Positions 6,962 through 63,741 of a DNA stretch of 64,000 nt are shown in pieces (position 1 is the first letter of the stretch; every line of letters starts with the position of its first letter). The stretch spans positions 124,001-188,000 of the forward strand of contig CP142732.1 in assembly GCA_036630325.1 (NCBI GenBank), read 5' to 3'. The notes beneath the pieces are model-generated. The model saw only the letters and a list, made by a program, of their open reading frames with translations. It ran no database searches and was not told the DNA's origin. This DNA comes from Vairimorpha necatrix. Lineage: Eukaryota. The position numbers and the translations under genes are program-made.

Positions 6962-7387
6962 CAACTCTTTCTTGTTTTTCTACCAATTTTGCTAAAAAAG
7001 ACCAGCTTGTAGGAAGCAAAATTTTCTTGCCTTATTTCGTCCCTCAATTTTTTTTCATGCCCTAATATTAGAGAACTTTAACGTTAAATTTCAAAGACAT
7101 AAAAACAACCGTTTTAGTGGATATTTTTTTAACCATTGACGTACCCCAAGCGGAGGTACGTCTCAATGAGATTATTATATTGTTGTTTGTAAATGTTATT
7201 TTTACTATATTGAGATTTATTATTTTTATGGTTCATCATCCTCTCCTTTGGTGAGGGGCTATTTTTAAATATTTTAAATATTTAATTGTTTGTTAACAAA
7301 CAAACAAATGAATGACATTTAGTTTGAGAAAATATTATAAACTAAATGATTAATGTGATGATGTTTCACATTCATTAATAAAAGTCA

Positions 7388-10300
7388 TCACATCCTGCCC
7401 ACTCCTCCGAATTTGATATCATCTTCATGTATTTCATTTTCAAATCCCTCTAACTTATACCACTTTCCTTTCTTTCCTGCTTTAGTTACTGTCACTGGTC
7501 CTAAATATTGATCATCTAATTTCTTTGCTTTAAAGTTTCTCACGAAAACTTGTTGACCTATTTTGAAAACTGGGGACTTCCTATTTCCGCCCGACTTCTC
7601 GGTATTTTCTCTACAGTTAGTTTGTAATTTATCAATTTTAATCCCGAAAGGATCATATGGACTGTGTCCTATTAAAAAGGTAGTTGGAGATACTTTAAGT
7701 GCAGTATTATAGTTGTGGTTATGTCTTATGTGGATTCCTTCTGATACTGATTTCAGATTTCTACCTTTATATAACCTGAGGCATTGCGTGATTGTTTGGT
7801 TCAGCCTCTCACTGATACCATTACTACTTGGGTGATATATAGGAGTTGCTATCTTTTGTATTTCGTGCTCTGCACAATATTTAATTAACTTCTCTGAATC
7901 ATATTGAGTTCCATTATCAGATATAAAGGTCTTAGGCCTTCCATAAACTTCTATCCAGTCTTTAATACATGTAATTATACGCTCCGCTGTAACCTTATAT
8001 GTAAAGTATACTTTTAGCGTTCTCGTATATACGTCTATAATAGTGATATAATATCCCTTATGACATGTACCGTTATGTATGTAGTTCTCTAGACTAAATG
8101 GTCCATAGATGTCACTCGATATCTTTTCGAATGGTGCAGAGGCTACAATACTATTATAAGATCGGTTTTTTTTCTTATTATTTTTCGTTCTGATGCAATT
8201 GATACAGTTACTTGTAATTTCTTTAATTAACTTTTTTACACCTGTAACTTTGAATATATGCTTAATATTATTGTAAAGAATTGTAGATCCAACGTGTATA
8301 GTTCTTCGATGCATATAATCCAAAAAATTCCTTGACTGATCATTATCTATTATTATTCTGTTCTTCTTGTCTTTAGCCCAAACATTGGGGGTTTCTTTTG
8401 TTTTCATAACGAACTGATTAAGTTCATTTAAGTATCTCGTTTTGTCTATAACTTCTTGACTTGTCGTTAATATCAAATTTCTAGATAAGCTGTCAGCTAT
8501 TACGTTCTTTGTGCCAGATATGGACGTTATTTTGATATTGAACTGGTTCAATATTAACTTCCACCTTTCAATCCTGCTAGATATTTGCTTGTTCGGTAGT
8601 AAACAGTTTTTATTATCAGTAGATACCTCTACATAGTAACCTAATATGATATTTCTGAAATGATTTAACGTCTTAATAATAGCAAATAATTCCTTTTCGA
8701 CTATTGAATAGTTCTTTTCGGTACTGTTTAGCTTTTTGCTGTAGTATCCAAGTATTCCTCCTTCTTGAAAGAGTACACCTCCTATGCCATTATTCGAAGC
8801 GTCGCACTGTATAACAAATTTCTTCGTGTAGTCTGGCAACTTAAGTGTAGCTTTACTAATATCAACTGCGATTTGCGCTACTATATCTTTGTGTTTGTCA
8901 GTCCAAAGTATTCCTGTATTTGTGTTCTTAAGCAGTTCTGTAATGTTCGCAATTTTATCACTCAAGTTAGAAACATAAGGTCTGTACCAGTTCATTATGC
9001 CAATTATTCTTTGCAGCTCCTTTTTTGATTTAGGGTTTCTGAGTGCTAACAATTTCTGAATGCTCGTTAGTTCTGGTTTCATAGTATTTTCACAAATCAC
9101 GTTTCCTAGTATCGTGGTATTATTAGTAAAAAACTCGCTTTTTTCAAAATTTATTGCTACTTCATAACTTTTGAGTCTTCTTAAAATTTTTGACACGGTT
9201 TTTATATGACTTTCAAGGTCTGGTGAAAAGGCCATTATATCATCAATGTAAACAAATATATTATCTATGTCTTCTAGTATTTTGATGATTGTTTTTTGAA
9301 AAATTTTAGGTCCTGAACGAATTCCAAATGGGACCCTTTTGTATTGGTATTGTCTTCCCAATAATGTAAACCCCGTAAATTTCCGACTTTCGGGTTTTAT
9401 GTATAGTTGGTTGAAACCGTTCTTCAGATCGATTTTTGTATACCATTTAGCGCTTCCCATTTGCATAATATTTTCTGTTATATTGGGTATTGCCGCAATC
9501 TCATCTATGACATATTCGTTTATTTCTCTATAATCGACCACCAGTCTCAAATCTTTATTCTTTTTTTCTATTAAAAATGCCGGGCTGGCATATGGCGAAT
9601 CTGAGAGTTCGATTATATCATTTTCTAGTAACCTTTGTAGTTCTCGTTTAGCTCCGACTGTATGTTTATGTGGAACACTGTAGAATTTTGGTTTAGGTGT
9701 TTTAATGTCTTGTCTCATCCTTATTTCTATCGGTTCTATTTTTATTTGTTTATAAGAAGAATTGGTTTTTACATATGAATAAATATAACGTTTTAATTCG
9801 TCGTTATTAAGATTTTCTAAAGACAGACACAGGCTTTCAATTAAAATTTTATCTAAATCTTCGATGTCTGATTCACTGTCTTCTTGGTTCTTTGTACTGA
9901 TCACATCACCGTTGATTATTATAGTCTGATTCTTATAATTCATTATTACTTCGTTACTACTAAGAAATTCGTTTCCTAATACAAATTCGACTGGTAAGTT
10001 ATTCAGTAAGTAAAATTTAACTACGTGGCTTGACTTAGCTCCTATTATTTTAATTTCCTCATTTACTGTCTCAGTACACTCTTCCATGTCATCATTTCCG
10101 TATTTTATAGTTATTGGAGAATCCTCGACGATAGGTATTTTTAGCTTAAGGGCAACTTCTCTCTTTATGAAGTTCCTTGAAGCTCCCGAGTCCATAAAAA
10201 ATGACGTTTGGTATTTTTTAATTACCCCTTGTAGTTCGGGTGTTTTAGTATTTATTCCTTTCTCGCTAATAATCAAGTTCCTAGTCTCTCCTTTCTGTTT

Positions 10301-11197
10301 TTCATCCCTATTCTTAATTTTTTCCTTAATAAATTTCTGGTAGGTCTCGCAATCTTTTGAATCGTGATCATTCTTCTTGTGGTATTTGCACCACTTGTTA
10401 TTGTTTACTGCCTCTAAAGTCTCTTTATAGGGTTCTTTCCTTATAGGATCAAAAACTTTCTTCTCTAGTATCACTTGTTTAGATACTATTTTCTTTTCTA
10501 ACGTGTAAAGAAATCTAATTGCATCTTTATAGTCTTTAAATTCATGCTTGAAAAGCTCTCCATCTGTATATGGACCAAGTCCATTGTAAAAGGTCTCTTC
10601 TACTCGCCTATTGAACTCTGTTTTTGAGAGTTTATTAATTACGGCATAAATGTTAACTAGTTCTTTAATTTCTTGGATGTATTCTTGGATGGTTTCATAG
10701 CTTAATTGTTTAATAGAAGCTAGTTCTGTTAATATGCTTCTGCTATGTTCTATCGGAAATCTAAGACCGATCAGATAATCGCGTGTGGAGAAAAAATCTT
10801 CCACTATCCTCTCTTGCTCGATCAATGAGTCTTTACTCATTTTCCTTATTACCATCATCAGCTGTTTGGGTTTCCATTGGTTTTCTTCTGAGATTTTTTC
10901 GATCTCTTTTAACCATTCTATAATATCTATTGTCCGTATATCTTCAATGTAATAGATATCTGTAGTGAACCTTTGTTCTAAACCTTCTATTTTGGTTTCA
11001 AATGTAATATATTTTCCTTTTAGTTTTTCTGCCTGCTTCCCTTGGTATTTCGACAGTTTCACCTTGCTTGGGATTTCACTCGTTGAATTCAACTTGACGT
11101 ACCCCAAGCGGAGGTACGTCTCAATGAGATTATTATATTGTTGTTTGTAAATGTTATTTTTACTATATTGAGATTTATTATTTTTATGGTTCATCAT
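7388..11197 (-). CDS. Gag-Pol polyprotein (Gag, CHHC knuckle, aspartic protease, RT, RNase H, integrase)
   Basis: WCKYHKKNDHDSKDC; FMDSGAS; LVVDYREIN and YIDD; IQCDAS...EKELFAI; integrase HHCC, SDIYGP, ISDNG, SNGISER. Ty3/Gypsy domain order. Confidence 0.97.
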   Translation of the reverse strand: MMNHKNNKSQYSKNNIYKQQYNNLIETYLRLGYVKLNSTSEIPSKVKLSKYQGKQAEKLKGKYITFETKIEGLEQRFTTDIYYIEDIRTIDIIEWLKEIEKISEENQWKPKQLMMVIRKMSKDSLIEQERIVEDFFSTRDYLIGLRFPIEHSRSILTELASIKQLSYETIQEYIQEIKELVNIYAVINKLSKTEFNRRVEETFYNGLGPYTDGELFKHEFKDYKDAIRFLYTLEKKIVSKQVILEKKVFDPIRKEPYKETLEAVNNNKWCKYHKKNDHDSKDCETYQKFIKEKIKNRDEKQKGETRNLIISEKGINTKTPELQGVIKKYQTSFFMDSGASRNFIKREVALKLKIPIVEDSPITIKYGNDDMEECTETVNEEIKIIGAKSSHVVKFYLLNNLPVEFVLGNEFLSSNEVIMNYKNQTIIINGDVISTKNQEDSESDIEDLDKILIESLCLSLENLNNDELKRYIYSYVKTNSSYKQIKIEPIEIRMRQDIKTPKPKFYSVPHKHTVGAKRELQRLLENDIIELSDSPYASPAFLIEKKNKDLRLVVDYREINEYVIDEIAAIPNITENIMQMGSAKWYTKIDLKNGFNQLYIKPESRKFTGFTLLGRQYQYKRVPFGIRSGPKIFQKTIIKILEDIDNIFVYIDDIMAFSPDLESHIKTVSKILRRLKSYEVAINFEKSEFFTNNTTILGNVICENTMKPELTSIQKLLALRNPKSKKELQRIIGIMNWYRPYVSNLSDKIANITELLKNTNTGILWTDKHKDIVAQIAVDISKATLKLPDYTKKFVIQCDASNNGIGGVLFQEGGILGYYSKKLNSTEKNYSIVEKELFAIIKTLNHFRNIILGYYVEVSTDNKNCLLPNKQISSRIERWKLILNQFNIKITSISGTKNVIADSLSRNLILTTSQEVIDKTRYLNELNQFVMKTKETPNVWAKDKKNRIIIDNDQSRNFLDYMHRRTIHVGSTILYNNIKHIFKVTGVKKLIKEITSNCINCIRTKNNKKKNRSYNSIVASAPFEKISSDIYGPFSLENYIHNGTCHKGYYITIIDVYTRTLKVYFTYKVTAERIITCIKDWIEVYGRPKTFISDNGTQYDSEKLIKYCAEHEIQKIATPIYHPSSNGISERLNQTITQCLRLYKGRNLKSVSEGIHIRHNHNYNTALKVSPTTFLIGHSPYDPFGIKIDKLQTNCRENTEKSGGNRKSPVFKIGQQVFVRNFKAKKLDDQYLGPVTVTKAGKKGKWYKLEGFENEIHEDDIKFGGVGRM
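11082..11093. other. Perfect 12-bp palindrome GTTGAATTCAAC at the expected PBS position of element A
   Basis: Lies 1 nt inside the 5' LTR boundary (11095). No TGG-initiated tRNA-complementary tract there. Confidence 0.9.
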
Positions 11198-13333
11198 CCT
11201 CTCCTTTGGTGAGGGGCTATTTTTAAATATTTTAAATATTTAATTGTTTGTTAACAAACAAACAAATGAATGACATTTAGTTTGAGAAAATATTATAAAC
11301 TAAATGATTAATGTGATGATGTTTCACATTCATTAATAAAAGTCATCACAACCATATAAAGAAAGTATTTTAAGTGGGATATCGCTCCGACTGAATTTTT
11401 TTCACTTCTAAATAGCTTTAAAGGAAAATCGCACCGAACGGTTACAATAACTATCTTATATATTTGTTAATAGTTTTATGTAATACTCCGATCACTTTCT
11501 TTTTTTGAATTCGCTTTTATAATTGCAGGCACTAAAAACAAATACGATGTTGTGTCATTTGTTAATAGATCGATTGCGAAAAGTTTTATATTGTCAAACA
11601 AATCGTGCACAAGTAAAGTTAGCATTTATTTCAAGAAATTAAATTATATTTTATTTCTTAACATTGTGTTTATAATTTGTTGCACATAGTTTTTTTTGTT
11701 GTATTATGAAGTAATATTAAATCTTTTAAATAATCAAAAATTCCTCTGCGGACAAGCCCTATGAATTATCTTACCCTTTAAGTAAGTATTACTCGGCAAA
11801 ATCTTTAGAATGAGAAATTAGTTTTTAATTATGTGTAAAGCAGTATTAATACACATAAGACATTCTATTATATATTCACAGATTTAATATTTAAGATTTT
11901 AATATTTAAAGTTATGTGAATTCATCCATAGTTAATATCTAAACTGTCGTGCTGCTGATTTTATCGTGTTTTATATATATTTAATGAAAATACTATCAGA
12001 GCTAAAATGAAAGGTAAAGTGAAAAAATACCAGGGAGATTGCTGAGATTTAAATCTATCAACTATGAAAGTCAATAATAAATGTGAGGATATTAGATGTA
12101 CAGTAAAAGGAGACCGGAATAATACCATCCATCATTGAAAGGTGGAATCTTTATGTGTGCCAAAACATTAAATATTTTGCTTTAATAAAGAAAAAAATAC
12201 TTGTTGGCTCATTAAAACATTTAATTTTTTTAAATACATTTATTTTATATAATCTCTAGATAAAGCTTTTAGTTTATCAATGATGTTTTTAATGTGCTTA
12301 ATCCGTTTTTTAAGAATTCTTTTACTCTCAGAAGGAAGAGTAAAAAAAATTATGGTTTTTAAATAATGGGCAAAATACTTAAAAAATGAAGAAAGATATT
12401 GGCTCTTAATTAAACATAAAGTACAATAAAATTTTTTAATCTATGCAAATATCCCTTGAAGCTTTGGCTTTAAAAAAAAGTATGCTCAAAACAAGAAAGA
12501 GCAGATTATGTAGATGAGTAAAAACGAATAATTACTAGTTAAGAAATATAGTTTTAATGTGTATTTATGATCATTTAGCTCTTATTTTGCATACGATTTG
12601 TATAAAATTGATCTATAATTATATTCCTTATATTTTTGATTCTTTTAACTCAATTTTGGCCCTTTCTTTACTTAAGATTTATTCCGTATGAAAGCTCAAA
12701 TATTTTTTCTATTTTTCCATTATGCTTGATGTCTTTCTTTTATTTGGTACAAATATGTTCATAGACCATGATTGTCAACTCCTTTATACCAGTGTCCAAG
12801 AAATGCCTCAATTGAACAATTTCTTATTCATTGTAAGTAATAAATTGCAGTATTATTGATGTTAAAATTGCAATGTATTTTAAATATTGTAAATATGGGA
12901 TATGTTTCTATTATAATTGTAAGGGGTATATATAAATTATTTAAGATTCCCGCCCAAACCAAAATAAAAATTAATTTATGATAAAAAAAAATACTAAAAT
13001 TTTACTAATATTAAGAGTAATTGTTTTTATTTTTAAATATTAAAAAGTTAATTGTATAATAAAAATTAATTAAAAAACAATTTGATTAATTAAATATAGT
13101 AAAATATTTATAAAATATTTTTCATAAAGATTAACCTAGAATATAAGATTTATTTAATAGTTAACATCCTGTTTTTTTAATTTAGTTTTCTTGGTATTAG
13201 ACGAAATACAAAAACTTTTATTATTTTCTTATTACTTCAATTTCGTATTGTTAAAATGCTTTAATTTATTCAATTTGTGATGTTTAAAAGTTACATTTGT
13301 TTATAAATAAAAAATCTATTATTAGATACCATA

Positions 13334-35692: not shown

Positions 35693-35980
35693 AAAACTTT
35701 AAGATGTTTTCATTGTTTCCCATGAAAATATTGATGTTTATACCTTTATCGTTATCTCTTCTTAATGATTCAACTATATAAATAAATTATGAAAAAAATA
35801 AAAATAAATTTTATAACAAGGTGTCTATAAAAATGAAACAAGGTTTCTATAAAAATAAAATGAGGTGTCTATGATATCCTAAATATCATAAAAATAATTT
35901 ATAAATATTTCCCTCCAAATTCTTCCAGTTTTCCCTCCAACATTTATTTAATAATTTTATCCGGAGAGGGGTACGGAGTA

Positions 35981-38900
35981 ATGGAAAGAAGATCTAATAT
36001 TAATAATAAAAATATTTTACATACTTTCCTAAGTGGTGGATACCACAAGTTAAATTTAACAAAGACGTATCCTAAACTAACCAAAAGGATAGAGATTAAA
36101 GAACAGAGAAACATGATCAGCTTCGAGATCAATGTTAAAGGCCTAAAGCAGCCTATTATCAAACAATTAGAGATTGTAAACAACATCGAGAAAACCAATA
36201 TGCTAGAATGGTTTCGAAAGTTCGAAGAGCTACGTAATAAACTGGAATGGGACGAGGAAGAGACTCTCCTAGTATTACAAAATTTAATTGAAAATAAAGA
36301 ATGGAAAGAAAAGACAGTTCTAAAAATTATTTAAAAAGTAAAGAGGAATTATTAAGTGTCGCATATCCACATCACTTATTTTCAAATCTGGGAATTAAAT
36401 TGTTAGAGATTAAACAAAAGAATTATGATTTGATAGAAGATATGTTTGTCGATATCCATGCCAAGCTTGAAGTGGCGGTTTTTTTAGAAAAATATACCAT
36501 AAGTGAATATGAGCGAAGATTTAATAAAATTTGTTTGAATGCCTTGTCTGACGCTACCAAAGACTATGTGATGAAATTAAGTATCAAGAGTGTCAAGGAT
36601 ATTATAAATCTATTGGTAAACTTGGAGAAAGAATTGGTAGTCAGAATTCAGAATGACTTGGAGTTATCAAGAAATGCCCACGTCGAGATAAATGAACCAA
36701 GACAGAGAAATGAGATGAATCGATGGTGTAGCTTGCATAGATCAAGAACTCATAACACAAGTGAGTGTTTCAGTAAAAATAGGCGAATCGAGAATAAGAA
36801 TAATAAGATTTACACAGATGAATTAAAAACAAATAAAAATCTTAAGTTTTCTCATTGTAAGGTAGTTTTAAAAGAAAAGTCCGAATATTTAACAGTAAAA
36901 CTTCCAATATCAATTAAGGGCCACACCGTAATCGCTATTTTAGATACAGGATGTACCAAAAATTTAAAAAGTTTAAAAAAGGTTAAGAAATTAGGTTTCA
37001 TGGCAAGAAAAGACAGAGAGTTTGTATTTATATTTGGAAACGGTTATCAGGAAAAATCAGATGAGATAATAGAAGAGAAGATTAGTATAAATAATTTAAA
37101 TATAAACATTGATTTAAGATTGCACGTGATAAAAGAATTATCAACAGACATAATCTTAGGAGTAGAGTTTTAAGTGAGAATCAAATTATTCTAAATTTTA
37201 TAACCCAAACAATACATCATAATAAGAATATTATTAACATGGTTAACGGATTACCTCAACCATTCGAAGAAAACAATGATTTATTAATGCAAAAATGCTT
37301 TTCAATAAATGAGGAAAATGTCAGCATGAAAAATACTTCAAAAATAATACAATATATAAAAAATAATGATTTGTATAAAGAGATGAAAATTAAAAAAGTT
37401 TCATTTGATATCAACACAAAAGAGGATTTGAAGTTGATAAATAAGAAATACACTATTCCACATAAATTCCTTATAGCGACTAAACAAGAGATACAAAGAT
37501 TGCTAAAAGAGAAAAATATCAAGTATAGTGAAAGTAAGTATAGCAGTCCAGCGTTTGTTATTGCTAAGAAAAATGACGAGATAAGATTAGCAGTAGACTA
37601 CAGAGAATTAAACAAAAATATAATAGATGAATTAGATGTTTTGCCCAAAATTAAAGATCTGATTAACGAGGTCAAAGGGGCAAAATATTTTACTAAAATT
37701 GATTTAAAAAATGGATTTAATCAAGTACCCATAGAAGAAAATTCTATGAATTTAACAAGTTTCAAAATTTTAGGAAACGTGTACAAATATACTAGAATCC
37801 CATTTGGTATTAAATCTGGTCCTAAAATATTCCAAAGGACCATCAACAAAATAATAGCTGAAATACCGAATGTGGTAGTATACATTGATGATATTTATAT
37901 ATACACCACAACCAAAGAAGAGCATAATAAGATTTTATGCCAAGTATTAGATAGGTTGGCTAGTTACGAAGTAAAAATTAACTTTGAAAAAAGCATTTTC
38001 GGAGTTAAAGAAGTTGAAATGTTGGGACTAATAATAAACGAAAAAGAAATTAGACCAAATGTAGCTGTTATTGATAAATTGGTGTTAAAATTAAATATAT
38101 CAAAACGCCGAGAATTACAGAAAATTTCAGGGGTATTGAATTGGTACCGAGAATTTGAACCAAATTTTAGTGCTAAAGTATTGAACTATACGGATAAATT
38201 AAAAGGAGCAGAACAAAAGATAGAACTAACAGATAAAGAAAAGCAAGATATAAAAGATTCGATCACGGAAATTAAAGAAAATGAAAAATAGTGTCCCCTA
38301 AATACGACGAAGAATTCTGGTTACAGACTGACGCATCTGATAAAGCCATGGGAGCAGTATTATTCCAAAAACATGGATGCATAGGATATTATAGTAAGAA
38401 GTTTACAGAAACTGAGATAAACTACACGATTGTTGAAAAAGAGATGTTCGCAATCTTACAGAGTTTAATATTTTTTAAAGGATGCATTCTGGGATATCAA
38501 GTAAAAATTATGTGTGATAACAGAAATTGCTTATTCGAAACAAAAAATAATAATAGTAGAATGATAAGATGGAAATTAAGGCTTAATGAATATAATTTTA
38601 CATTAGAAAGCATCGAACGAAAGAAAAACGTAATCGCAGACTATTTATCGCGAATGTCATCAGATGAAGTACTGCAAGTAAAGAGTAATAATGGAAGGGA
38701 AGATAATATATTACTAAAAGAGACGCCGGCAATTACAACAATTAAATAGAACGGTAAACTTTATATTAAGCCCAATGAAAGTGAAAATTTAGTCGAATAT
38801 GCACTTAAAAAGCAAGCATGCAGGGATGTTTGTACTATATAACAATTTGAAAGATTATTATTATATAAATAACATGAAAGAAGTCATAAGAAAAGTAGTT

Positions 38901-39679
38901 AACAGTTGTCAGAACTGTAAATTTAATAAAAAAATTAGCTATCACAGATTTGAAAATAAACTAAAAATTAAAGCAAGAGCGCCGTTTGATAAAATTTGTT
39001 CAGACATATATGGTCCAACAAAAATAAATAATAAAAAATGGTATATTATGACTATAATTGATGTTTACACAAGATACACAAAGGTATATAAATTAAGAGA
39101 AATTACAGATAAAAGAGTGGTAGAGTGTTTTGGAAAATGGTTTAATATATTTCACCATTTAAAAACAATAATTACTGATAACGGAACACAGTATACTAGT
39201 AATTTAGTAAAAGAATTTACTGATAAGAATGATATAAATCTTATACATGTTCCGAAATACCATCCACAGAGCAATGGTATCTGTGAGAGAACAAATAGCA
39301 CTATCTCTGAAATAATCAGATTATATAGAAAGGAATCTTTAGAAAACATAATAGAAAATATAGAGATTAGACTTAATAAGAACTATAGAAGATCAATAGG
39401 ATGTGCACCTGAAGAATATGTTACAGGTACCAATCAATATGATCCTGAAGACAGAATCCAGCTGAAAAAAATATCAAGCAGTAAGAAACCGTTACAATTA
39501 AGAAAAGTTTCGTCGAATCAAAAATCGGAGATAAAGTATACGTGAAAAACTTTCAAAGCAAGAAATAGGAAAAGGCATTTAAAGGGCCATACATAGTAGA
39601 ATTAGTTAGCAAAAATAACAGATGGATCAAAGTCAAGGAAAAATATGAATAGGTTCATATTGCGGATACTAAAAAATAA
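35981..39679 (+). pseudogene. Gag-Pol of element B, split by stops and frameshifts
   Basis: WCSLHRSRTHNTSEC, ILDTGC, VDYRELN, YIDD, LQTDAS, SDIYGP and ITDNG across six ORF pieces. Confidence 0.92.
36049..36060. other. Perfect 12-bp palindrome GTTAAATTTAAC at the PBS position of element B
   Basis: 1 nt after the 5' LTR end (36047). No TGG tract. Confidence 0.9.
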
Positions 39680-40262
39680 AATCTAAGGAGGGGCGGATTA
39701 TGATATCCTAAATATCATAAAAATAGTTTTTAAATATTTCCCTCCAAATTCTTCCAGTCTTCCCTCCAACATATATTTAAAAATTTTATCCGGAGAGGGG
39801 TACGGAGTTATGGAAAGAAGAAGTAATATTTACAATAAAAATATTTTACATACTTTCCTCAGTGGTGGATACCACAGTGTCTATAAAAATTAAACAAGGT
39901 TTCTAAAAAAATGGAACAAGGTGTCTATAAAAATGAAATAGACTGAAAAACAAATGGTGAAATTCATCTAAAGATTCATTTATTTAATTTTTAACCAGTT
40001 TCATTGGTTTTTTTCCCTTTTACCTATATATGTTATTTTTTAATCGGTTATTCGATAAATTTTCTATTATTTCCTTTGGCTCACCATAAAAAAAACTCAA
40101 TTTATTTATTTTTTTGTTTTCGCATTAGTGTCAAAATCTTTTTTTTATAACAACTAAATCCCCAATAGAAAAATCATTGATAGAATTATAAACACATTTT
40201 CTGTCCATTCAAGCTAAATTATCTTTCATTACACACTGAAACTTTTCCGGCATCGTGTTTAC

Positions 40263-41782: not shown

Positions 41783-44700
41783 TGTTAACCATTTATTTAT
41801 TAAGGGATCTAAACCCTACATCCCCCCTCCAGACGGGTAGTCTCTCCATCTTCTAAACAACTCTTCCTTATCTCTTTCAAATCATAATGCCTCTTTTTAA
41901 CAATTTTACCATCCAGTAGTCTCACAATATATGAATCATTTTCACTTATAGCTACGATCCTTCCGCGACCCGTGAATCTTCCCTTGTCTGTTTTCGCACG
42001 TGTACCTAAATTTTCTCTCCTAGCGATTCTTACCTCTTGGCCTACTGTAAATGTCTCTCTGTGTCTTCTCTTGAATCGACCAGCATATTTTCCATTTTCA
42101 TCATTTTCAATTATAACTTCAGCAGTTTGATCTCTCCACGCTTCCATCGGCGTACATTTTATTGCTGTATGTAGTGTATTATTATATCCTTTGATTGCTC
42201 TTTCTATCTTTTCAGAAATATTCCCATCATTTTGCTTTATCAATGTCTCTCTTATAGTTCTGATGCATCTCTCGATTCTACCATTACTCCTATGAGCTTC
42301 TAAGCCCACTTTCCTATGTTTAATATCATTAATACTACACCATTCTTTAAATCTATTACTTACAAACTCTTTTCCGTTGTCTGTCACATATTCCTCTGGA
42401 AATCCATCTTCCCTTATCCACTTTTGTAATACCTCTATAACTTCACTACTCTCTTTACATCTCAAATTCGAACCCCACAACCTTCTAGTAAAGTAATCAA
42501 TACCCAGTAACACATACCTATTCTCTCCACCTATGTCCATTAAATCCAACGCCACTTTCTCCAATTTCTTTCTAGTTACTACGAAATCACATCCTCCTGT
42601 GTTTTTCCTATTGTTAATCCCACATATTTCACAATTCTTAATTACCTTATTAATATGATCTTTCATACCAGGCCAATACCATCTTTGTTTAATGTTATAA
42701 TAAGTGCCTTTGACACCTCTATGGTTTAACTCCTCATGTACTCTTGTTATTTCATGTTCTCTACTATCTAGGCTCAATATCTCTTTCACCTCACCTGTGG
42801 AAAATTCCCAATACTGTTTACCGTCCTTTTCTTTAATATGTTTCTGCTTTTTTCCCAAAATTTGTTTTTCTATCACTTCTTTTCTCTTGTTGTCCTTTTC
42901 TTTTTGTTCATCCGAAACTTCTACCTGATCATACTGCCTACTTAACGCATCTGCATCTGTCATCAACTCCCCTTTCACATACTCTATTGTAAAGTCAAAC
43001 TCTTGTATCTGTTCTACCCATCTGTTTATTCTGTTATTATTGAAGTATGGCTTATTTCTGATCTCTGCTAATGCTTTATGATCCGTCATCAAATGAAATT
43101 TCCTTCCTCTCAAATCACTTTCAAACTTCTTTATTCCAAAAAACACCGCCAACATCTCCTTCTCACTTATCGTATATCTTCGCTCGGTAGGAGTCAACAT
43201 TTTCGATGCCCATTGTATCGGAATCCACTCACCCTCTTTATTTTCTTGTAATAGAATTGCTCCGATCCCCGTATCACACGCATCAGTTCTTACTCTAAAT
43301 AGCTTTTTTCCGTCCGGAATCTTCAACTTTTTCATATCTCTCAAGCCTTGCTTCATATCCTCAAAGGCTCTTTCCATATCCTCCGTCCAATTCCACTTAA
43401 CATCTTTCTTTAAAGCCTCAGTAAGCCTTACTGTTCTATACGCATAGTTGGGAATAAAGTCTCTAAACCAACCAGTTAGTCCTAAAAATCTTCTTAACTC
43501 TCTAACACTCTCAGGTTTTCTATATTCCAATGTCTCCTGCTTTTTAATCTCATTCGGTCCCATGACCTCCCCATTAATTGTTACTCCCAGCAACATCACC
43601 TCATCTTTTTTGTATTGTATCTTTGTTTGGTTTATTCTCAACCCACACTCTTTAAACTTTTTAATTACCCTCTCTAGTAACTCGTCATGCACTCTTACGT
43701 CTTTACCATGAATAACTATATCATCCATATATACTTCCACGCCTTTACCTCTGAATTCATCTAAAACTCTGTTCATTACTCTCTGCATTATATGAGGCGA
43801 ATTCTTAAACCCCATAACCATACTATTCCATTCGTATACTCGACCATTCACTTCAAATGCTGTTTTGTGCTTATGGTGCTCCTCAATCTCAATATGATAA
43901 AACCCTTCTTTTAAGTCGATAACCGTAAATACTTTTGACCCCTGTGTGGCTCTCATAATATCCTTAATTAACGGTAGTGAGTACGGGTCCTTGTCAACCA
44001 AATCGTTTAACGCCTTCAAATTGCTTACCAATCTTACGTCCCCATTTGGTTTTTCAAGTGCTCTTATTGGACTCCTCCACTCACTTTTGGAACGTCTTAT
44101 AACCCCTCTATTTTCCAACTTATTCAAGTACTCCTCAAATTTCACCCTAAGGTAGTATGGCACATTCTGCCCACTTTTCACAACCTTTTCACCTTGCTTA
44201 GTATTTATTGGACACTTCTCTCCTGTGAGATATTTTATCTTTTCTTCTGATTCTTTAAAAACTTCCGGATACTTTTCAATTAAATTTTCTAACTTATTTA
44301 CTGTTTTACATCTTTTCCCTTCATTGTTGATAATTGGTTCTTTCTGTAAAACTTGTTCCTTTTTAATTTTATATTTTTCCCTACCAGCTACACTTTCATG
44401 ACATTCTCTAGCGTAATGCCCTTCTTTCTTACATATAAAACATTTTGTAGTTTCTCTGATTTCTCTTCTTTTCCTATACATCCTAAGATTTTCTTTTCTT
44501 TCTTCCCTAAACTCTTTCAACACTTTATCCATAATCTCTTTAATCATTTCTTGTCTTTCTTCTGACTCTCTCTCAAATTCTGCTCCTTTTTGTAAGCCTT
44601 TATAAATTTCCTCCCAACTGCTCCTTCCGTCACAAAAATTTTCAAAAATATAATTCTGCAAGTTCGCAGATGCCAAATCCATAACATCTTTCCACTCAAC

Positions 44701-44857
44701 TTTCTCAACTTTCAATATTAACTTTAGTCTCTTATCTATCCTAATTGCCTCTTTCTCTAATGTTCTAGCCTCTTGACTACGGGACTTTCTTGTTTCCCTG
44801 TTCATCCTTGTGTTCGCCATGTTAACCATTTATTTATTAAGGGTTCTAACCCCTACA
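41783..44857 (-). mobile_element. Intact minimal Ty3/Gypsy element with 38-bp LTRs
   Basis: LTRs 41783-41820 and 44820-44857 (36/38 identical, TG...CA), TSD TAATA, PBS-like TGGCGAACAC, PPT GGAGGGGGGA. Confidence 0.95.
41809..44829 (-). CDS. Polyprotein: short Gag with CCHC knuckle, RT, RNase H and integrase, no recognisable protease
   Basis: CFICKKEGHYAREC; YMDD; VRTDAC...EKEMLAV...TDHKAL; HEELNH/CEIC, ALDLMD, VTDNG, SNGRIER. No D(T/S)G motif between knuckle and RT. Confidence 0.95.
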   Translation of the reverse strand: MVNMANTRMNRETRKSRSQEARTLEKEAIRIDKRLKLILKVEKVEWKDVMDLASANLQNYIFENFCDGRSSWEEIYKGLQKGAEFERESEERQEMIKEIMDKVLKEFREERKENLRMYRKRREIRETTKCFICKKEGHYARECHESVAGREKYKIKKEQVLQKEPIINNEGKRCKTVNKLENLIEKYPEVFKESEEKIKYLTGEKCPINTKQGEKVVKSGQNVPYYLRVKFEEYLNKLENRGVIRRSKSEWRSPIRALEKPNGDVRLVSNLKALNDLVDKDPYSLPLIKDIMRATQGSKVFTVIDLKEGFYHIEIEEHHKHKTAFEVNGRVYEWNSMVMGFKNSPHIMQRVMNRVLDEFRGKGVEVYMDDIVIHGKDVRVHDELLERVIKKFKECGLRINQTKIQYKKDEVMLLGVTINGEVMGPNEIKKQETLEYRKPESVRELRRFLGLTGWFRDFIPNYAYRTVRLTEALKKDVKWNWTEDMERAFEDMKQGLRDMKKLKIPDGKKLFRVRTDACDTGIGAILLQENKEGEWIPIQWASKMLTPTERRYTISEKEMLAVFFGIKKFESDLRGRKFHLMTDHKALAEIRNKPYFNNNRINRWVEQIQEFDFTIEYVKGELMTDADALSRQYDQVEVSDEQKEKDNKRKEVIEKQILGKKQKHIKEKDGKQYWEFSTGEVKEILSLDSREHEITRVHEELNHRGVKGTYYNIKQRWYWPGMKDHINKVIKNCEICGINNRKNTGGCDFVVTRKKLEKVALDLMDIGGENRYVLLGIDYFTRRLWGSNLRCKESSEVIEVLQKWIREDGFPEEYVTDNGKEFVSNRFKEWCSINDIKHRKVGLEAHRSNGRIERCIRTIRETLIKQNDGNISEKIERAIKGYNNTLHTAIKCTPMEAWRDQTAEVIIENDENGKYAGRFKRRHRETFTVGQEVRIARRENLGTRAKTDKGRFTGRGRIVAISENDSYIVRLLDGKIVKKRHYDLKEIRKSCLEDGETTRLEGGCRV

Positions 44858-55724: not shown

Positions 55725-58700
55725 GATACATATAAAATCAGTAGTAATGGGGAAATAAGTAAAAAACACGCTACGCAGATTAGAAAAATTGACGAAGACG
55801 ATTATTTCTCATAGAGGGGGGATGTTGTGACATTTTCATGTCATTGTTTATTTTATATTTTTATTATTAAATACCCCTTAACTTGGATATGTCTATCAGT
55901 AACATAAACAAATTTTACTAGCTGCAAACTTTTCATATTAAATTAGAGATGAATTTCAGTCTATAAAAACATTAATCATAAAATTTTACGCTAAAAGAGA
56001 AATACTTACGCTCTAGTATTAAGTTTTTGTTATTGAATTTGATATAATCAAAACAGTACTATTGAAATGACGAAAAAGCATACTCAGATTTTTTATACAA
56101 AATAAAATCTAACATCTCTATCATTTTGTATAATTTTTAAAATTATCAGGAATATGGATTGTGTACATCAAAATTTTTTATAATTTGTATATATATTATA
56201 GAGGCATCTAAACATCTCTAGGAACGATGGCATTGTAAATTAGTGTGGTATCCACCACTTAAGAACATGTCAAGAATATTAATATTTATTTGTTTGTTTA
56301 CCGTATTGGTTATTCTTCTTGTTTCCTGTTCTTTATTCATCTCGTACCCCTGGATGGATAAAATGTTTAAATATTTATCGGAGGGAAAAGTATTGGACTT
56401 GGAGGGAAAGATGTCAAATTTGGAGGGAAATGTTAGTAAACATATCGTATGATATTTAGGATATCATAATCTGCCTCTCCCATCATTTTAGAGTTTGGTG
56501 TCGGCAATGTGAATCCACTCGTAGACTCCTTTGACTTTGAACCACCTGCCATTCTTACCAACTGATTCTACTAGGTATGGTCCCGTGATCGCCTTTTCCC
56601 ACTTCTTAGCTAGAAAGTTTCTTACATACACCTTATCTCCGATTTTTACTTTCTTGATCTTTTTCTTCTCCAGATTCTTCTTCGCGGTCTTTGTTATCTT
56701 CTTAAGCCGCACTCTTTCTTTAGGGTCAAATTGATTATTCCCCGTGACTAGCTCTTCCGGGGCGCAGCCTATTGATCTTCTGAAGTTTTTATTTAATCTA
56801 ATTTCGATGTTTTCTAGTATTTTCTCAAGCGGCTCTGATTTGTATAACCTGATTATTTCCGATATAGTGGTATTTGTTCTCTCACAGATGCCATTGCTCT
56901 GTGGGTGGTATTTTGGTACATGTATGAGATTTATATTATTTTCGTTTGCAAAGTTTTTAACTAGATTACTTGTATACTGTGTTCCGTTGTCTGTAATTAT
57001 AGTTTTAGGATAATGGAACTCCCTGCACCATTTTTCAAAACACTCGACCACTCTATTGTTTGTGATTTCTCTTAATTTATACGCCTTTGTATACCTGGTA
57101 TAAACGTCGATGATCGTCAATATGAACCATTTTTTATTGTTTATCCTTGATGGACCGTATATATCTGAACATATTTTTTCAAACGGTGTTTTGGCTGTGA
57201 TTCCCATTTTATCTTCGAGTTTGTGATAGCTAAATTTTTTGTTATGTTTACAGTTTTGACAACTGCTGACTACCCTTTTAATAATTTCTTTCATTTTGTA
57301 TATATAGTAATAATCTTTCAAGTTATAATATAAGACAAACATTCCTGCATGCTTGCTTTTTAAATGCATGCTTTTAATAAAATTTTCACTTTCACTAGAC
57401 TTTATGTGTAGTTTGTCGTTTTTCTTAGTTCCCGGAACAGCTAAGGTTTCCTTAAATACTTCCTTTTCTTCTTTTTCATTGTCTGTTTTAATTTGTAATA
57501 TTTCTTCTGTGGCGACCGTGATAGATGATCCGCAATTACATTTCTTTTTCCCTCTATGCCTTCTAGTGTAAGATTATATTCATTGAGCATCATCTTCCAT
57601 CTTATCATTCTGCTATTATTATTTTGGGTATCAAATAGGCAATTTCTGTTATCGCACATAACTTTAACTGGGTATCCCATGACAATTCCTTTAAAGAATA
57701 TTAGGCTTTGCAATATATTGAACATTTCTTTTAGACAATTGTGTAGTTTGCTTCGGCGTCGGTAAATTTCTTGCTGTAATAACCTATGCATCCGTGTTGT
57801 TGAAACAATACCGCTCCCATGGCTTTCTCCGATGCATCAGTTTGTAGACAAAATTCTTCCCCATATTTCGGGGCCACCAGTTTTCCATTTTCCTTAATTT
57901 CATTGACTAAGGCCCGTATATTTTGCTTCTCGCTCTCTGTTAATTCTATCTTTTGCTCAGCTCCCTTCAGCTTATCAGTTAAATTCATGACTTTGGCACT
58001 AAAATTGGGCACAAACTCTCTGTACCAGTTTAAGATTCCTAGGATTTTCTGTAGCTCCCGTAGTTTTGTTATATCTAACTTTACTAATACTTTACCTATA
58101 TTACTTACATTAGGCTTTATTTCCTTTTCATTTATAATCATGCCTAACATCTCGACTTCTTTAACCGCAAATATACTCTTTTCGAAGTTAATTTTTATTT
58201 TATAACTGGATAATCTGTCTAGTACTTGGTTTAAAATCGTATTATGTTCCTCTTTGGTTAAGGTGTATATTAAAATATCATCAATATATACTACTACATT
58301 GGGTATCTCTGCCAATATTTTATTTATCGTTCTTTGAAATAGTTTGGGGCCTGATTTAATGCCGAATGGGATTCTTGTATATTTGTAAACATTTCCTAAA
58401 ATTTTAAAACTGGTCAGACTCATGGAATTTTCTTCTATGGGTACCTGATTGAATCCGTTTTTTAGGTCGATTTTAGTGAAATACTTTGCACTTTTGACCT
58501 CGTTCATCATATCTTTTATCTTAGGTAGTAAATCCATTTTATCAACTATATTATGCTTCAATTCCCTATAATCTACTACTAGCCTTATTTCGTTATTTTT
58601 CTTGGCAATGACGAATGCGGGGCTGCTGTACTTACTTTCACTGTATTTGATAATTTTCTCTTTCAACAGTCTTTTTATCTCCTGCTTAGTTGCATCAAGG

Positions 58701-59603
58701 TACTTGTGTGGGATCGTGTATTTTTTATTTGTCAGTCTTAAGTTCCCTTTGCTGCTCAGTTCAAATGCAATTCTCTTGATTTTCATCTCTTTGAATAACT
58801 CATTGTTTTTCATGTATTTTAATATCTTCGAGGTGTTCTCGGTGCTGACATTCTTTTCGTTTATGGCAAAACATCTTTGCAATAGTAAATCTCTGTTTTC
58901 CTCGTATGGAAGTGGTAATCCGTTAACCATATTGATAATCCTTTGGTTATTACAGATTGTTTGGGTGGCAAAGTTGAGGATGATTTGATTCTCACTTAAG
59001 AATTCTACCCCCAAGATTATGTCGGCCGATAGTTCTCTTATTACGTGCAGTCTTGTTGGGTTTTCAATATTTAGACTGCTTATTCGAATGTTTTCTTCTA
59101 TAATCTCTCCTGACATCTCCTGGTGTCCGTTACCAAATATAAAGTTTACTCCGATGCCCTTCCTCGTAGTGATCCCTAGTTGGTTCACCTTGTCTACGCT
59201 TACTAGGTTTTTAGTGCAGCCCGTATCCAATATGGCGATTACAGTCTGGCCGTTAATATACACGGGTAGTTTTACTGTTAGATACTCGGATTTTTCTTTT
59301 AAAATTACTTTACAATGGGAAAACATAATATCTTTATTGGATTTAAATTCCTCTTTCTTTATTTTGCTACTCCTATCTTCGTTTCTTTTATTCCTACTAA
59401 AGCAGTCACTAGTGTTATGTGTTCTTGACCTATACAAGCTACACCATCGATTCATTTCATTTCGTAGCATTGGTTCTCTAACGTCGGTCGAGGTACTTCT
59501 GGCTCGATCTAAATCACTATGTATTCTAGCGATTAGTTCCTTCTCCAGAGTTATTAGTAAGTGTATAATTTCTTTGATGTTCTTTACGCCAGCTTTCATA
59601 ACA

Positions 59604-62787: not shown

Positions 62788-63299
62788 TAACATAATCTTT
62801 AGTGGCATCTGTTAACGAATTTAGGCATACTTCATTAAATCTTCTTTCGTATTCATTCTTAGTATATTTTTCTAGATACGACGCCACTTCTAATTTGGTC
62901 TGAATTTCCGTAATCATCTCCTCTATTAGGTCATAATTAGTCTGTTTTATTTCTAGCACTCTTACACCCGCCGAAGAGAATAGGTTTTTTGGGTAGGCTA
63001 TACTTAAGATCTCTTCCTTTAATTTCGCGTACGTCTTAGCATCATTTCCATATTGATTTTCATAACCTTCAATTACATTCTGCAGTACTATTAGATTCTC
63101 TTCATCGTTCCATTCTAGTTTATTGCTAATGTCTTCAAATTTTCTAAACCATTTTAACATGTTGGTTTTTTCAATATATTTCACTTTTTCTAATTGTTTA
63201 ATAATTGGCTCCTTTAGGCCTTTGATTTTGATTTCAAAGCTGATCATTTCTTTGATAGATTCAGTTTTTATCCTTTTGTTTAGTTTAGGATACAGCTTG

Positions 63300-63311
63300 G
63301 TTAAATTTAAC
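63300..63311. other. Perfect 12-bp palindrome GTTAAATTTAAC at the PBS position of element H
   Basis: 1 nt inside the 5' LTR boundary (63313). Confidence 0.9.
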
Positions 63312-63741
63312 TTGTGGTATCCACCACTTAAGAACATGTCAAGAATATTAATATTTATTTGTTTGTTTACCGTATTGGTTATTCTTCTTGTTTCCTGTTC
63401 TTTATTCATCTCGTACCCCTGGATGGATAAAATGTTTAAATATTTATCGGAGGGAAAAGTATTGGACTTGGAGGGAAAGATGTCAAATTTGGAGGGAAAT
63501 GTTAGTAAACATATCGTATGATATTTAGGATATCATAATTAGCTATATATAATTTTAATTATCATCTACTTTTCTTATTTCGTTGAACAACATTTTATGT
63601 AAATATTATATAGATTTAAAAATTTTTAAAGGCCTGAAAGCTGCACAATAAACGAACTTATGTCTACTATATCCAAGGATAATGCTATAAAAGATATAAA
63701 TGTTTTAATCATCTTTGATATCATGGGTTGTTTTTAATTAG

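What the first reader, a model, noticed from the sequence alone, without database searches (positions are those of the whole stretch)
36048..36060. Palindromic PBS, second instance (element B)
LTR-CA|A|GTTAAATTTAAC: same spacing and length as in element A although the LTRs and Gag proteins are strongly diverged. This copy supplies the compensatory substitution relative to A.
Basis: seen in the sequence. Interest (0 to 1): 0.72.

Follow-up and report, generated by a model that had tools for sequence, protein, structure and literature searches.

The report
Palindrome at retrotransposon primer site
A group of jumping genes in microsporidian parasites carries a short, perfectly self-complementary sequence exactly where such elements normally bind a host tRNA to start copying themselves, and evolution keeps it self-complementary, so they probably start DNA synthesis in a different, still untested way.

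Summary
GTTAAATTTAAC (36049-36060) is a perfect 12-nt palindrome. It lies one base after the terminal CA of the 5' LTR of a degraded Ty3/gypsy element (B) and inside the Gag reading frame, whose start codon is in the LTR. A second copy of the same family (C) has it in the same position. The intact, distant element A has GTTGAATTCAAC, which differs by one paired double change.

The palindrome is under selection. In B versus C, the longest identical run ends at its last base. Among 49 distant Gag relatives from at least six microsporidian genera, 38 have a peptide that can encode a 12-nt palindrome in the same register (background 3.4%). In the published Anncaliia algerae consensus DNA, I read a palindrome at this position in 31 of 51 LTR families, in two different codon registers.

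No tRNA-type (TGG) site and no Tf1-type complement in the LTR is present. Three other LTR elements in this window do have TGG sites.

The mechanism is inferred, not shown: self-pairing of the element's own RNA replaces the tRNA primer. The closest described analogue is the Conserved Hairpin Site of fungal GalEa copia elements.

This scan noted the same idea earlier on other DNA of this genome (e1-7176600, e1-7177626).

The parts
35865..35869 (.). Target-site duplication GTGTC, 5' side of element B (3' side at 39877-39881)
35870..36047 (+). 5' LTR of element B (178 bp, TATGATATCC...GGATACCACA); holds the Gag start codon
35981..36331 (+). First 117 codons of Gag of B. The ATG is inside the LTR, the frame runs through the palindrome (peptide GYHKLNLT) and is then broken by a stop at 36332; the copy is degraded.
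36048..36048 (+). One-base spacer (A) between the LTR's terminal CA and the palindrome
36049..36060 (+). Perfect 12-nt palindrome GTTAAATTTAAC at the primer-binding position (the finding)
36038..36043 (+). GGATAC, 5' arm of a predicted 6-bp stem that encloses the palindrome (weak support in B and C)
36067..36072 (+). GTATCC, 3' arm of that stem; lies in the third-longest B/C identical run (36067-36080)
39699..39876 (+). 3' LTR of element B (94% identical to the 5' LTR), ends ...CCACA and is followed by GTGTC
11095..11350 (-). 5' LTR of intact element A (TGTGATGAC...GGGGTACGTCA); Gag ATG at 11197 inside it
11082..11093 (-). Palindrome GTTGAATTCAAC of element A, one base (11094) after the LTR; peptide GYVKLNST
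7391..11197 (-). Single open frame of element A: Gag, protease, reverse transcriptase, RNase H, integrase
7137..7392 (-). 3' LTR of element A; target duplication ATGGT at 7132-7136 and 11351-11355
63313..63537 (-). 5' LTR of element C (same family as B); target duplication CTAAT
63300..63311 (-). Palindrome GTTAAATTTAAC of element C, one base (63312) after the LTR
56244..56468 (-). 3' LTR of element C

Best explanation
The 12 bases are a selected nucleic-acid element, not a peptide motif. They take the place of the tRNA primer-binding site in a microsporidia-wide group of Ty3/gypsy elements whose Gag starts inside the LTR.

Proposed mechanism (inferred):
- In the genomic RNA the palindrome pairs with the identical palindrome of a second copy of the RNA, forming a 12-bp duplex.
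- One strand is cut at the 3' edge of the duplex. By analogy with Tf1, the cut would be made by the RNase H of the reverse transcriptase.
- The new 3'-OH primes minus-strand DNA across the spacer base, U5 and R.
- The primer and the primer-binding site are therefore the same sequence, which is why the site may drift only by paired changes.
- Relatives that carry a stem-loop at the same place could do the same by folding back on themselves.

What is shown: position, selection, covariation, absence of a TGG site and absence of a complement in the LTR. What is inferred: RNA-RNA pairing, cleavage and priming.
For: Position
- The palindrome starts 1 nt after the LTR's terminal CA in A, B and C, 3 of 3 members of this Gag family in the window.
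- The three other LTR elements in the window have TGG 0-4 nt after their LTR.

Conservation in DNA
- The longest B/C identical run (31 nt, 36030-36060) ends at the last palindrome base, while aligned B/C identity is 77%.

Covariation in proteins
- Of 150 listed relatives (189 hits), 54 have residues in the five motif columns. Five were dropped for insertions.
- 38 of the remaining 49 can encode a 12-nt palindrome in register. The background is 792 of 23,511 windows. Column shuffles give a mean of 16.3 and a maximum of 26 in 5,000.
- The 38 peptides imply 17 distinct 12-mers.
- All 18 rows that failed a stricter test have a fitting window within -4..+12 residues, where 17.6% per row is expected by chance.

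DNA in another genus (Anncaliia algerae consensus sequences, PMC4202319 supplement, read by eye)
- 31 of 51 LTR families have the palindrome 0-3 nt after the terminal CA. 29 are perfect, and there are 12 distinct 12-mers, in two codon registers.
- The DNA matched what the peptide rule implies in the nine families I spot-checked by eye (C, G, H, P, R, X, AD, AF, AQ).

Pairing energy
- Self-duplex is -9.4 (B/C) and -14.0 kcal/mol (A). The 12-mer hairpin is 0 and -1.1.

Precedent
- Tf1/Tj1 prime from their own RNA after cleavage (PMC4600332, passages).
Against: - No experiment or read data bear on priming. The one read-laying run was uninformative for these bases.
- A 12-bp A+U-rich duplex is weak.
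- If the template RNA were also cut, minus-strand DNA would lack the site needed for the second strand transfer. The model therefore needs an uncut partner RNA.
- The core is strongly conserved in sequence: GAATTC in 26 of 31 A. algerae families. This could also point to recognition by a protein.
- Nine A. algerae families have a stem-loop with a non-palindromic loop at the same place. That fits a fold in cis better than a dimer.
- The phylogeny-aware covariation test had little power: 2 independent pairs on well-supported branches and 6 on all branches, all concordant, but p = 0.5 for the supported ones.
- The protein test shows only that a palindrome can be encoded, not that it is.
Confidence: 0.5

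Rival explanations
1. The palindrome is only a dimer-linkage or packaging signal that holds two genomic RNAs together. Minus-strand synthesis is primed by something else.
For: Palindromes in or next to the PBS contribute to RNA dimerisation in HIV-2 and MMTV (PMC5874298, passages). The intermolecular duplex is far more stable than the hairpin. In element A the fold places the palindrome in the loop region of a 9-bp stem (-22.8 kcal/mol, z -3.5, 0 of 200 shuffles as good).
Against: The LTR border fixes where the primer's 3' end must pair: at the first bases after the spacer, that is, on the palindrome itself. No TGG or other candidate site lies within 18 nt. A host primer would hold the sequence constant, yet 12 (DNA) to 17 (inferred) different 12-mers occur. 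The enclosing stem is not significant in B and C (z -1.4 and -1.0).
Confidence: 0.2
2. The element acts in cis as a small hairpin directly after U5. This would be either a fold-back primer after cleavage or a structure that reverse transcriptase recognises, like the Conserved Hairpin Site of fungal GalEa elements.
For: Nine of 51 A. algerae LTR families carry a 5-7-bp stem with a 4-8-nt loop directly after the LTR (retro A, B, E, M, Q, AL, AU, BL, CA). GalEa elements have a conserved hairpin at the PBS position (PMC5445492, passages).
Against: The 12-mer alone has no stable hairpin (0 and -1.1 kcal/mol). The central four bases are self-complementary in all three window copies and in all 31 A. 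algerae palindromes (AATT, AGCT, CTAG, CATG), which a hairpin loop does not need. No second complementary box follows within 100 nt.
Confidence: 0.15
3. It is a DNA site for a symmetric (dimeric) protein, such as a host transcription factor or the element's integrase.
For: The core xxTG-AATT-CAxx is strongly conserved in sequence; GAATTC is at the centre in 26 of 31 A. algerae families.
Against: The outer pairs covary freely (A.T, T.A, G.C and C.G all occur). One consensus (retro BO) keeps pairing only as T.G, which is tolerated in RNA but not in a DNA site. The position is tied to the LTR end, not to the promoter, and the site is absent from the 3' LTR side.
Confidence: 0.07
4. It is a conserved Gag peptide motif (K/N/I-L-N-S/L) whose DNA happens to be palindromic.
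For: The peptide block GY.KLN.T is the best-conserved part of the Gag N-terminus.
Against: The residues covary by Watson-Crick rules, not by chemistry. K or M at the first position goes with I/M/T/F/L/P at the fifth (14 of 14). N or S goes with K/N/R (9 of 9; 3 rows with S at the fifth position were set aside). In A. algerae the same palindrome lies in a different codon register (NIEFNT, IFEFKS, HSEFR). The codon choice is improbable given the peptide.
Confidence: 0.02

Closest known systems
[quoted passage not shown] 2017, PMC5445492; passages read)
   Same: No tRNA-type PBS. A short conserved palindrome sits at the PBS position directly after the 5' LTR. Variants arise by paired substitutions. 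The mechanism is unknown, and the authors suspect that it replaces the PBS.
   Different: CHS is in the copia superfamily and lies in non-coding sequence. Its palindrome is 9-10 nt and includes the LTR's last A. It is defined by a second box 12-41 bp downstream that is complementary to the first, with a fixed A/A mismatch. Here the elements are gypsy, the palindrome is 12 nt or longer and in frame within Gag, it usually starts one base after the LTR, and no second box follows.
Self-primed reverse transcription of Tf1/Tj1 (Tf1/sushi group; PMC4600332, passages read)
   Same: A Ty3/gypsy-type element that needs no tRNA. The primer comes from the element's own RNA after cleavage of an RNA duplex at the PBS.
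   Different: In Tf1 the PBS pairs with the first bases of the same mRNA (the start of R). Here no LTR segment matches the palindrome: the best has 4-5 mismatches of 12 in A, B and C.
Palindromes used for genome dimerisation in retroviruses (DIS hairpins; PBS palindromes of HIV-2 and MMTV; review PMC5874298, passages read)
   Same: A self-complementary sequence in the 5' part of the genomic RNA, at or next to the PBS, able to pair between two RNA copies.
   Different: In retroviruses these are usually 6-10 nt and G+C-rich. They either lie in a hairpin loop or are part of a genuine tRNA-complementary PBS, and they exist in addition to tRNA priming.
Microsporidian Ty3/gypsy groups (Parisot et al. 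2014, PMC4202319; main text searched, supplement Table S1 and File S1 read in part)
   Same: The same kind of element: a single polyprotein, about 4 kb, LTRs of 50-270 bp. In most families of their Table S1 the ORF starts before the LTR ends.
   Different: The paper's main text has no occurrence of 'primer binding', 'PBS' or 'palindrom'. The feature is visible in their sequences but is not described there.
Ty1 of Saccharomyces (recalled, not checked in a call)
   Same: Gag starts inside the 5' LTR, so the primer-binding position lies within the Gag reading frame.
   Different: Ty1 is copia-type and uses initiator tRNA-Met at a TGG-type PBS.

Membership tests
Ty3/gypsy (Metaviridae) LTR retrotransposon | Two LTRs flanked by a short target-site duplication | tested here: met
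   A: 256-bp LTRs, ATGGT. B: 178-bp LTRs (94% identical), GTGTC. C: 225-bp LTRs, CTAAT.
Ty3/gypsy (Metaviridae) LTR retrotransposon | Domain order protease, reverse transcriptase, RNase H, integrase | tested here: met
   Pfam on the ORF of A: aspartyl protease 338-427, RVT_1 557-712, RT_RNaseH 803-900, integrase zinc domain 966-1020, rve 1036-1137. The pieces of B and C show the same domains.
Ty3/gypsy (Metaviridae) LTR retrotransposon | PBS complementary to a tRNA 3' end (starts TGG) next to the 5' LTR | tested here: not met
   No TGG within 18 nt after the LTR in A, B or C. Elements D, E and the one nested in C have TGG 0-4 nt after their LTR. Pairing to internal tRNA parts could not be tested: there are no tRNA genes in the window and no genome is held.
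Tf1/sushi-type self-priming elements | PBS complementary to the 5' end of the element's own transcript (in the LTR) | tested here: not met
   The best LTR match to the palindrome has 4-5 mismatches of 12 in A, B and C.
Tf1/sushi-type self-priming elements | RNase H cleavage of the RNA duplex creates the primer | not testable with these tools
   Needs biochemistry.
GalEa Conserved Hairpin Site | Host element belongs to the GalEa clade of Ty1/copia | tested here: not met
   Integrase lies after RNase H, which is the gypsy order.
GalEa Conserved Hairpin Site | Palindromic box at the LTR end plus a second complementary box 12-41 bp downstream | tested here: not met
   The palindrome is present. 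No second copy with up to 2 mismatches lies within 100 nt downstream in A, B or C.
Retroviral dimer initiation site | Palindrome exposed in the loop of a stem-loop, in addition to a separate PBS | tested here: inconclusive
   An enclosing stem is predicted in all three. It is significant only in A (z -3.5) and not in B and C (z -1.4, -1.0). No separate PBS was found.
Gag family of microsporidian gypsy elements with Gag start in the LTR | Gag profile match, and the start codon upstream of the LTR end | tested here: met
   A, B and C match the Gag profile. The ATG lies 67-103 nt before the LTR end. 189 relatives at E<=0.001. The ten looked up include Anncaliia, Nosema, Vairimorpha, Dictyocoela, Edhazardia and Hepatospora.

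The most novel reading that the evidence does not exclude
These elements use a third way of starting reverse transcription among LTR retroelements, besides tRNA priming and Tf1-type priming from the RNA's own 5' end. Two co-packaged genomic RNAs pair through the palindrome, one is cut at its edge, and it primes DNA synthesis on the other. Genome dimerisation and priming would then be a single event, encoded within the Gag reading frame.
Probability: 0.33. Interest if true: 0.85.

Novelty: new variant of a known kind. Interest (0 to 1): 0.7.

Why it matters
Every LTR retroelement must solve the problem of priming its first DNA strand. Only two solutions are established: a host tRNA, and the Tf1 self-primer. 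The fungal GalEa hairpin site is an unexplained third case.

The data here show that a large, old group of Ty3/gypsy elements, spread over at least six microsporidian genera, has replaced the tRNA site with a self-complementary sequence. That sequence must also code for Gag. The coding frame limits which palindromes are possible: in the register of A, B and C, two of the four possible states of pair 4/9 (T.A and C.G) would create stop codons.

This gives a clear, falsifiable system for studying tRNA-independent priming. It explains a conserved "peptide motif" as an RNA constraint. It also matters for annotation, because LTR finders that require a tRNA-complementary PBS will reject or mis-rank these families.

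Tried and rejected
- The whole genome is not held, so no genome-wide census of this family was possible.
- A word-indexed protein search with the Gag part of A found nothing. The full HMMER search did find relatives.
- Related DNA in public collections:
  - The metagenome scan gave 80 generic gypsy loci. None matched the Gag profile except a weak hit in L018, which has no perfect palindrome.
  - The viral scans gave 7 and 0 loci, with no Gag match.
  - The first genome-collection scan failed because the alignment was too diverse. The narrower alignment gave one truncated locus, L088.
- Laying contigs of two runs on 35700-36700: no variant is listed for 36005-36103, but 178 rows are hidden and many contigs end there. 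This says nothing either way.
- Tf1-type complement in the LTR: absent.
- tRNA genes in the window: none. Rfam: no family anywhere in the window.
- The bacterial-type promoter scan is irrelevant here.
- Proline at the ninth residue, which could have marked the enclosing stem across relatives, is not conserved. The stem is therefore supported only within this window.
- The phylogeny-aware covariation test was underpowered because the Gag tree is poorly resolved: 3 of 46 inner branches are well supported.
- Literature searches for a prior description found none for microsporidia. In the 'PBS' hits the one paper I opened used PBS for a buffer. Xu et al. 2006 on Nosema bombycis elements is not in the searchable library and was not seen.
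Full report
**What is in the window**

The window is A+T-rich (22-38% G+C) and crowded with mobile elements. Earlier notes of this scan call the genome a Nosema/Vairimorpha-type microsporidian. My own protein hits agree that it is microsporidian. No whole genome is held.

Direct repeats define four LTR pairs. ORFs and Pfam matches give six LTR elements:
- A, 7137-11350, minus strand. It is intact, with one frame carrying Gag, protease, RT, RNase H and integrase.
- B, 35870-39876, plus strand. It is degraded.
- C, 56244-63537, minus strand. It belongs to the same family as B and is interrupted by a nested 3.2-kb element.
- D, 44896-50100, minus strand.
- Two compact elements without protease: E at 41783-44857 and the one nested in C at 59604-62787.

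**The observation**

In B the 5' LTR ends ...GGATACCACA at 36047. One A follows, then GTTAAATTTAAC at 36049-36060. The 3' LTR ends with the same CA and is followed by the 5-bp target duplication, so the LTR border is exact.

A has the same layout with GTTGAATTCAAC. C has it with the same 12-mer as B. The A and B palindromes differ at positions 4 and 9, which are partners.

In all three elements the Gag start codon lies inside the LTR, and the frame reads through the palindrome (GY[HV]KLN[LS]T). In A no other in-frame ATG exists for about 100 codons.

A profile of this Gag family finds only A, B and C in the window. So 3 of 3 members carry the palindrome. The other three LTR elements have TGG 0-4 nt after their LTR, as expected for tRNA priming.

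**Is it more than chance?**

- Only 49 of about 64,000 window positions start a perfect 12-nt palindrome.
- Given the peptides and the family's codon usage, the palindromic codon choice has probability 0.028 (B/C) and 0.0045 (A).
- B and C are 77% identical over the ungapped Gag start. Their longest identical run in 819 aligned columns is 31 nt, 36030-36060, and it ends exactly at the last palindrome base. The second longest run is the LTR's 5' end.
- Differences between B and C: 0 of 12 in the palindrome against 63 of 247 downstream. For third positions the counts are 0 of 4 against 31 of 83. For the palindrome alone this single pair is weak (P about 0.03 for all sites, 0.15 for third positions).

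**Distant relatives, protein level**

A profile of the three Gag N-termini found 189 proteins at E<=0.001, of which 150 were listed. Ten that I looked up include records from Anncaliia algerae, Nosema granulosis, Vairimorpha necatrix, Dictyocoela muelleri, Edhazardia aedis and Hepatospora eriocheir.

I asked whether the five residues aligned to K-L-N-S/L-T could be encoded as a perfect 12-nt palindrome in the same register.
- 54 proteins have residues in all five columns. Five were dropped for insertions.
- 38 of the remaining 49 pass. In the same proteins, 792 of 23,511 other windows pass (3.4%).
- Shuffling residues within columns gives a mean of 16.3 and a maximum of 26 in 5,000 shuffles.
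- For the two outer pairs alone, 38 of 40 pass, against a shuffle mean of 18.9 and a maximum of 28.
- Each passing peptide has exactly one palindromic solution, and there are 17 different 12-mers.
- Among the 38 passing peptides, the first codon can start with A in 37 (background 0.48), and the preceding codon can end in C in 38 (background 0.74). Both fit an LTR ending in CA in the same register.

Misses:
- The 11 failures look like misalignments across a variable spacer.
- With a stricter triple criterion, all 18 non-passing rows have a fitting window within -4..+12 residues, where 17.6% per row is expected by chance.
- Three of the 38 passes (P0031, P0096, P0121) are probably chance hits beside the true motif.

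The covariation follows base-pairing rules. K or M at position 1 goes with I/M/T/F/L/P at position 5 in 14 of 14 rows. N or S goes with K/N/R in 9 of 9 rows; three rows with S at position 5 were set aside as ambiguous.

The Gag tree is poorly resolved. The phylogeny-aware test therefore found only 2 independent pairs on supported branches and 6 on all branches. All are concordant, but the test is not significant for the supported ones. These results show that a palindrome can be encoded, not that it is.

**Distant relatives, DNA level**

The supplement of Parisot et al. 2014 (PMC4202319) holds consensus DNA of A. algerae elements, together with a table of LTR lengths and ORF positions. I read the start of every record whose header matches 'Consensus_retro' (54 records) by eye. 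Three have no LTR and were left out, which leaves 51.

- 31 of 51 have a palindrome 0-3 nt after the terminal CA. 29 are perfect and 12 nt or longer. One has two N. One keeps pairing only through a T.G.
- 9 of 51 have a 5-7-bp stem with a 4-8-nt loop directly after an LTR.
- 9 of 51 have a TGG-type site.
- 2 of 51 are unclear.

The usual layout is CA, one base, then the 12-mer, as in this window. The longest palindromes (up to 22 nt, retro AD) run back into the LTR. There are 12 different perfect 12-mers, for example TTTGAATTCAAA, ATTGAATTCAAT, TTTGAGCTCAAA, GATGAATTCATC, AATGAGCTCATT, TTTGCTAGCAAA and ATTGCATGCAAT.

Where I compared peptide and DNA by eye (families C, G, H, P, R, X, AD, AF, AQ), the DNA is the palindrome that the peptide rule implies. 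In some families (F, BE, BP) the palindrome sits in a different codon register (NIEFNT, IFEFKS, HSEFR). That is hard to reconcile with a peptide motif.

Caveats:
- This was read by eye.
- The authors' LTR lengths differ by 1-4 nt from my CA-based ends in about ten families.
- For retro BU the table gives an LTR of 90 bp, while the palindrome lies at 129.
- The paper's main text does not mention a PBS or a palindrome.

**What it is not**

- There is no complement of the palindrome in the LTR (the best has 4-5 mismatches of 12), so it is not a Tf1-type self-primer.
- There is no TGG.
- There is no second complementary box downstream as in the GalEa hairpin site.
- There is no Rfam family.
- A site inside U5 cannot be the PBS, because the 3' LTR contains U5 up to the CA.

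**How it most likely works**

The sequence drifts but stays self-complementary, so its pairing partner must change with it. The partner is therefore the same sequence, not a host RNA or a sequence-specific protein.

The 12-mer cannot fold on itself (0 and -1.1 kcal/mol), but it pairs between two molecules at -9.4 and -14.0 kcal/mol. The central four bases are also always self-complementary, which a hairpin would not require.

The LTR border requires that the primer's 3' end pair with the first palindrome bases. In a palindrome duplex, that 3' end is the last palindrome base of the partner RNA. A cut there would give exactly the observed U5 end. Tf1's RNase H makes a comparable cut in an RNA duplex (PMC4600332).

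The A. algerae families with a stem-loop at the same place could do the same by folding back.

All of this is inference. A role in dimerisation alone, or a cis structure, remain real alternatives. In A a 9-bp stem encloses the palindrome (-22.8 kcal/mol, z -3.5). In B and C the equivalent stem is weak and is not marked in the relatives' proteins.

**Comparison and novelty**

The closest described feature is the Conserved Hairpin Site of fungal GalEa copia elements (PMC5445492, passages). It has the same position and the same puzzle, but it belongs to a different superfamily, is non-coding, is shorter and has two boxes.

My searches found no description for microsporidia or for gypsy elements. 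The library lacks most subscription papers, including Xu et al. 2006. I did not open the additional files of PMC5445492.

Earlier notes of this scan reached the same reading on other DNA of this genome (e1-7176600, e1-7177626) and on a copia element of another genome (e1-7504256). I treated them as leads only.

- The third copy in this window.
- The B/C conservation profile.
- The protein-level covariation test across genera.
- The DNA census in A. algerae, with three site types and two codon registers.

**Verdict**

Priming itself is untested.

Noticed in passing
window 59604-62787 (minus): A compact 3,184-bp gypsy element with no protease domain found is nested in Gag of element C. It has 49-bp LTRs, target duplication TGTTA and a TGG-type site (TGGGGGCGATACC) directly after the LTR. 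A. algerae retro AB has nearly the same primer site.
   Followed up: partly
window 41783-44857 (minus): Compact 3,075-bp element E with 38-bp LTRs, one 1006-aa frame in which no protease domain was found, and TGGCGAACAC directly after the LTR. It has the same length and LTR size as an element that earlier notes describe elsewhere in this genome.
   Followed up: partly
window 44896-50100 (minus): Gypsy element D (166-bp LTRs, 98% identical) has TGGCGACAACG four bases after its LTR. It carries an IS1595/Merlin-type transposase fragment (46885-47493) inside it. Another such transposase ORF lies at 2561-3106.
   Followed up: no
window 35870-35879 and 63528-63537: The LTRs of B and C start TATGATATCC, that is TA and not the usual TG, while A starts TGTGATGAC. 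With 5-bp target duplications the border is unambiguous in C. Several A. algerae consensus LTRs also start TAT.
   Followed up: partly
PMC4202319 supplement, retro A, B, E, M, Q, AL, AU, BL, CA: Nine A. algerae LTR families carry a 5-7-bp stem with a 4-8-nt loop directly after the LTR instead of a palindrome or a TGG site. In seven of them the LTR ends CCAACC; in Q and CA it ends CCAAGG. This is a third type of site at the primer position.
   Followed up: partly
window 35965-35975 with 36064-36072; C 63426-63416 with 63296-63288: In the folds of B and C, GGGGUACG just upstream of the Gag AUG pairs with CGUAUCCU or UGUAUCCU just downstream of the palindrome. This would be a long-range pairing of the 5' end with the region after the primer position.
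   Followed up: no
window 11232-11261 and 7274-7303: The LTR of A holds a 12-nt palindrome (TTAAATATTTAA) directly beside an 18-nt palindrome (TTGTTTGTTAACAAACAA), about 40-70 nt upstream of the Gag ATG, near the presumed promoter.
   Followed up: no
window 26182-26207: A 26-nt perfect palindrome (TTAAAACCCCTTTAAAGGGGTTTTAA) lies in an A+T-rich stretch with no ORF of 180 aa or more called over it.
   Followed up: no
window 21174-22130 (plus): A 318-aa open frame with a CCHC zinc knuckle. It does not match the Gag profile of A, B and C and is probably a remnant of another retroelement.
   Followed up: no
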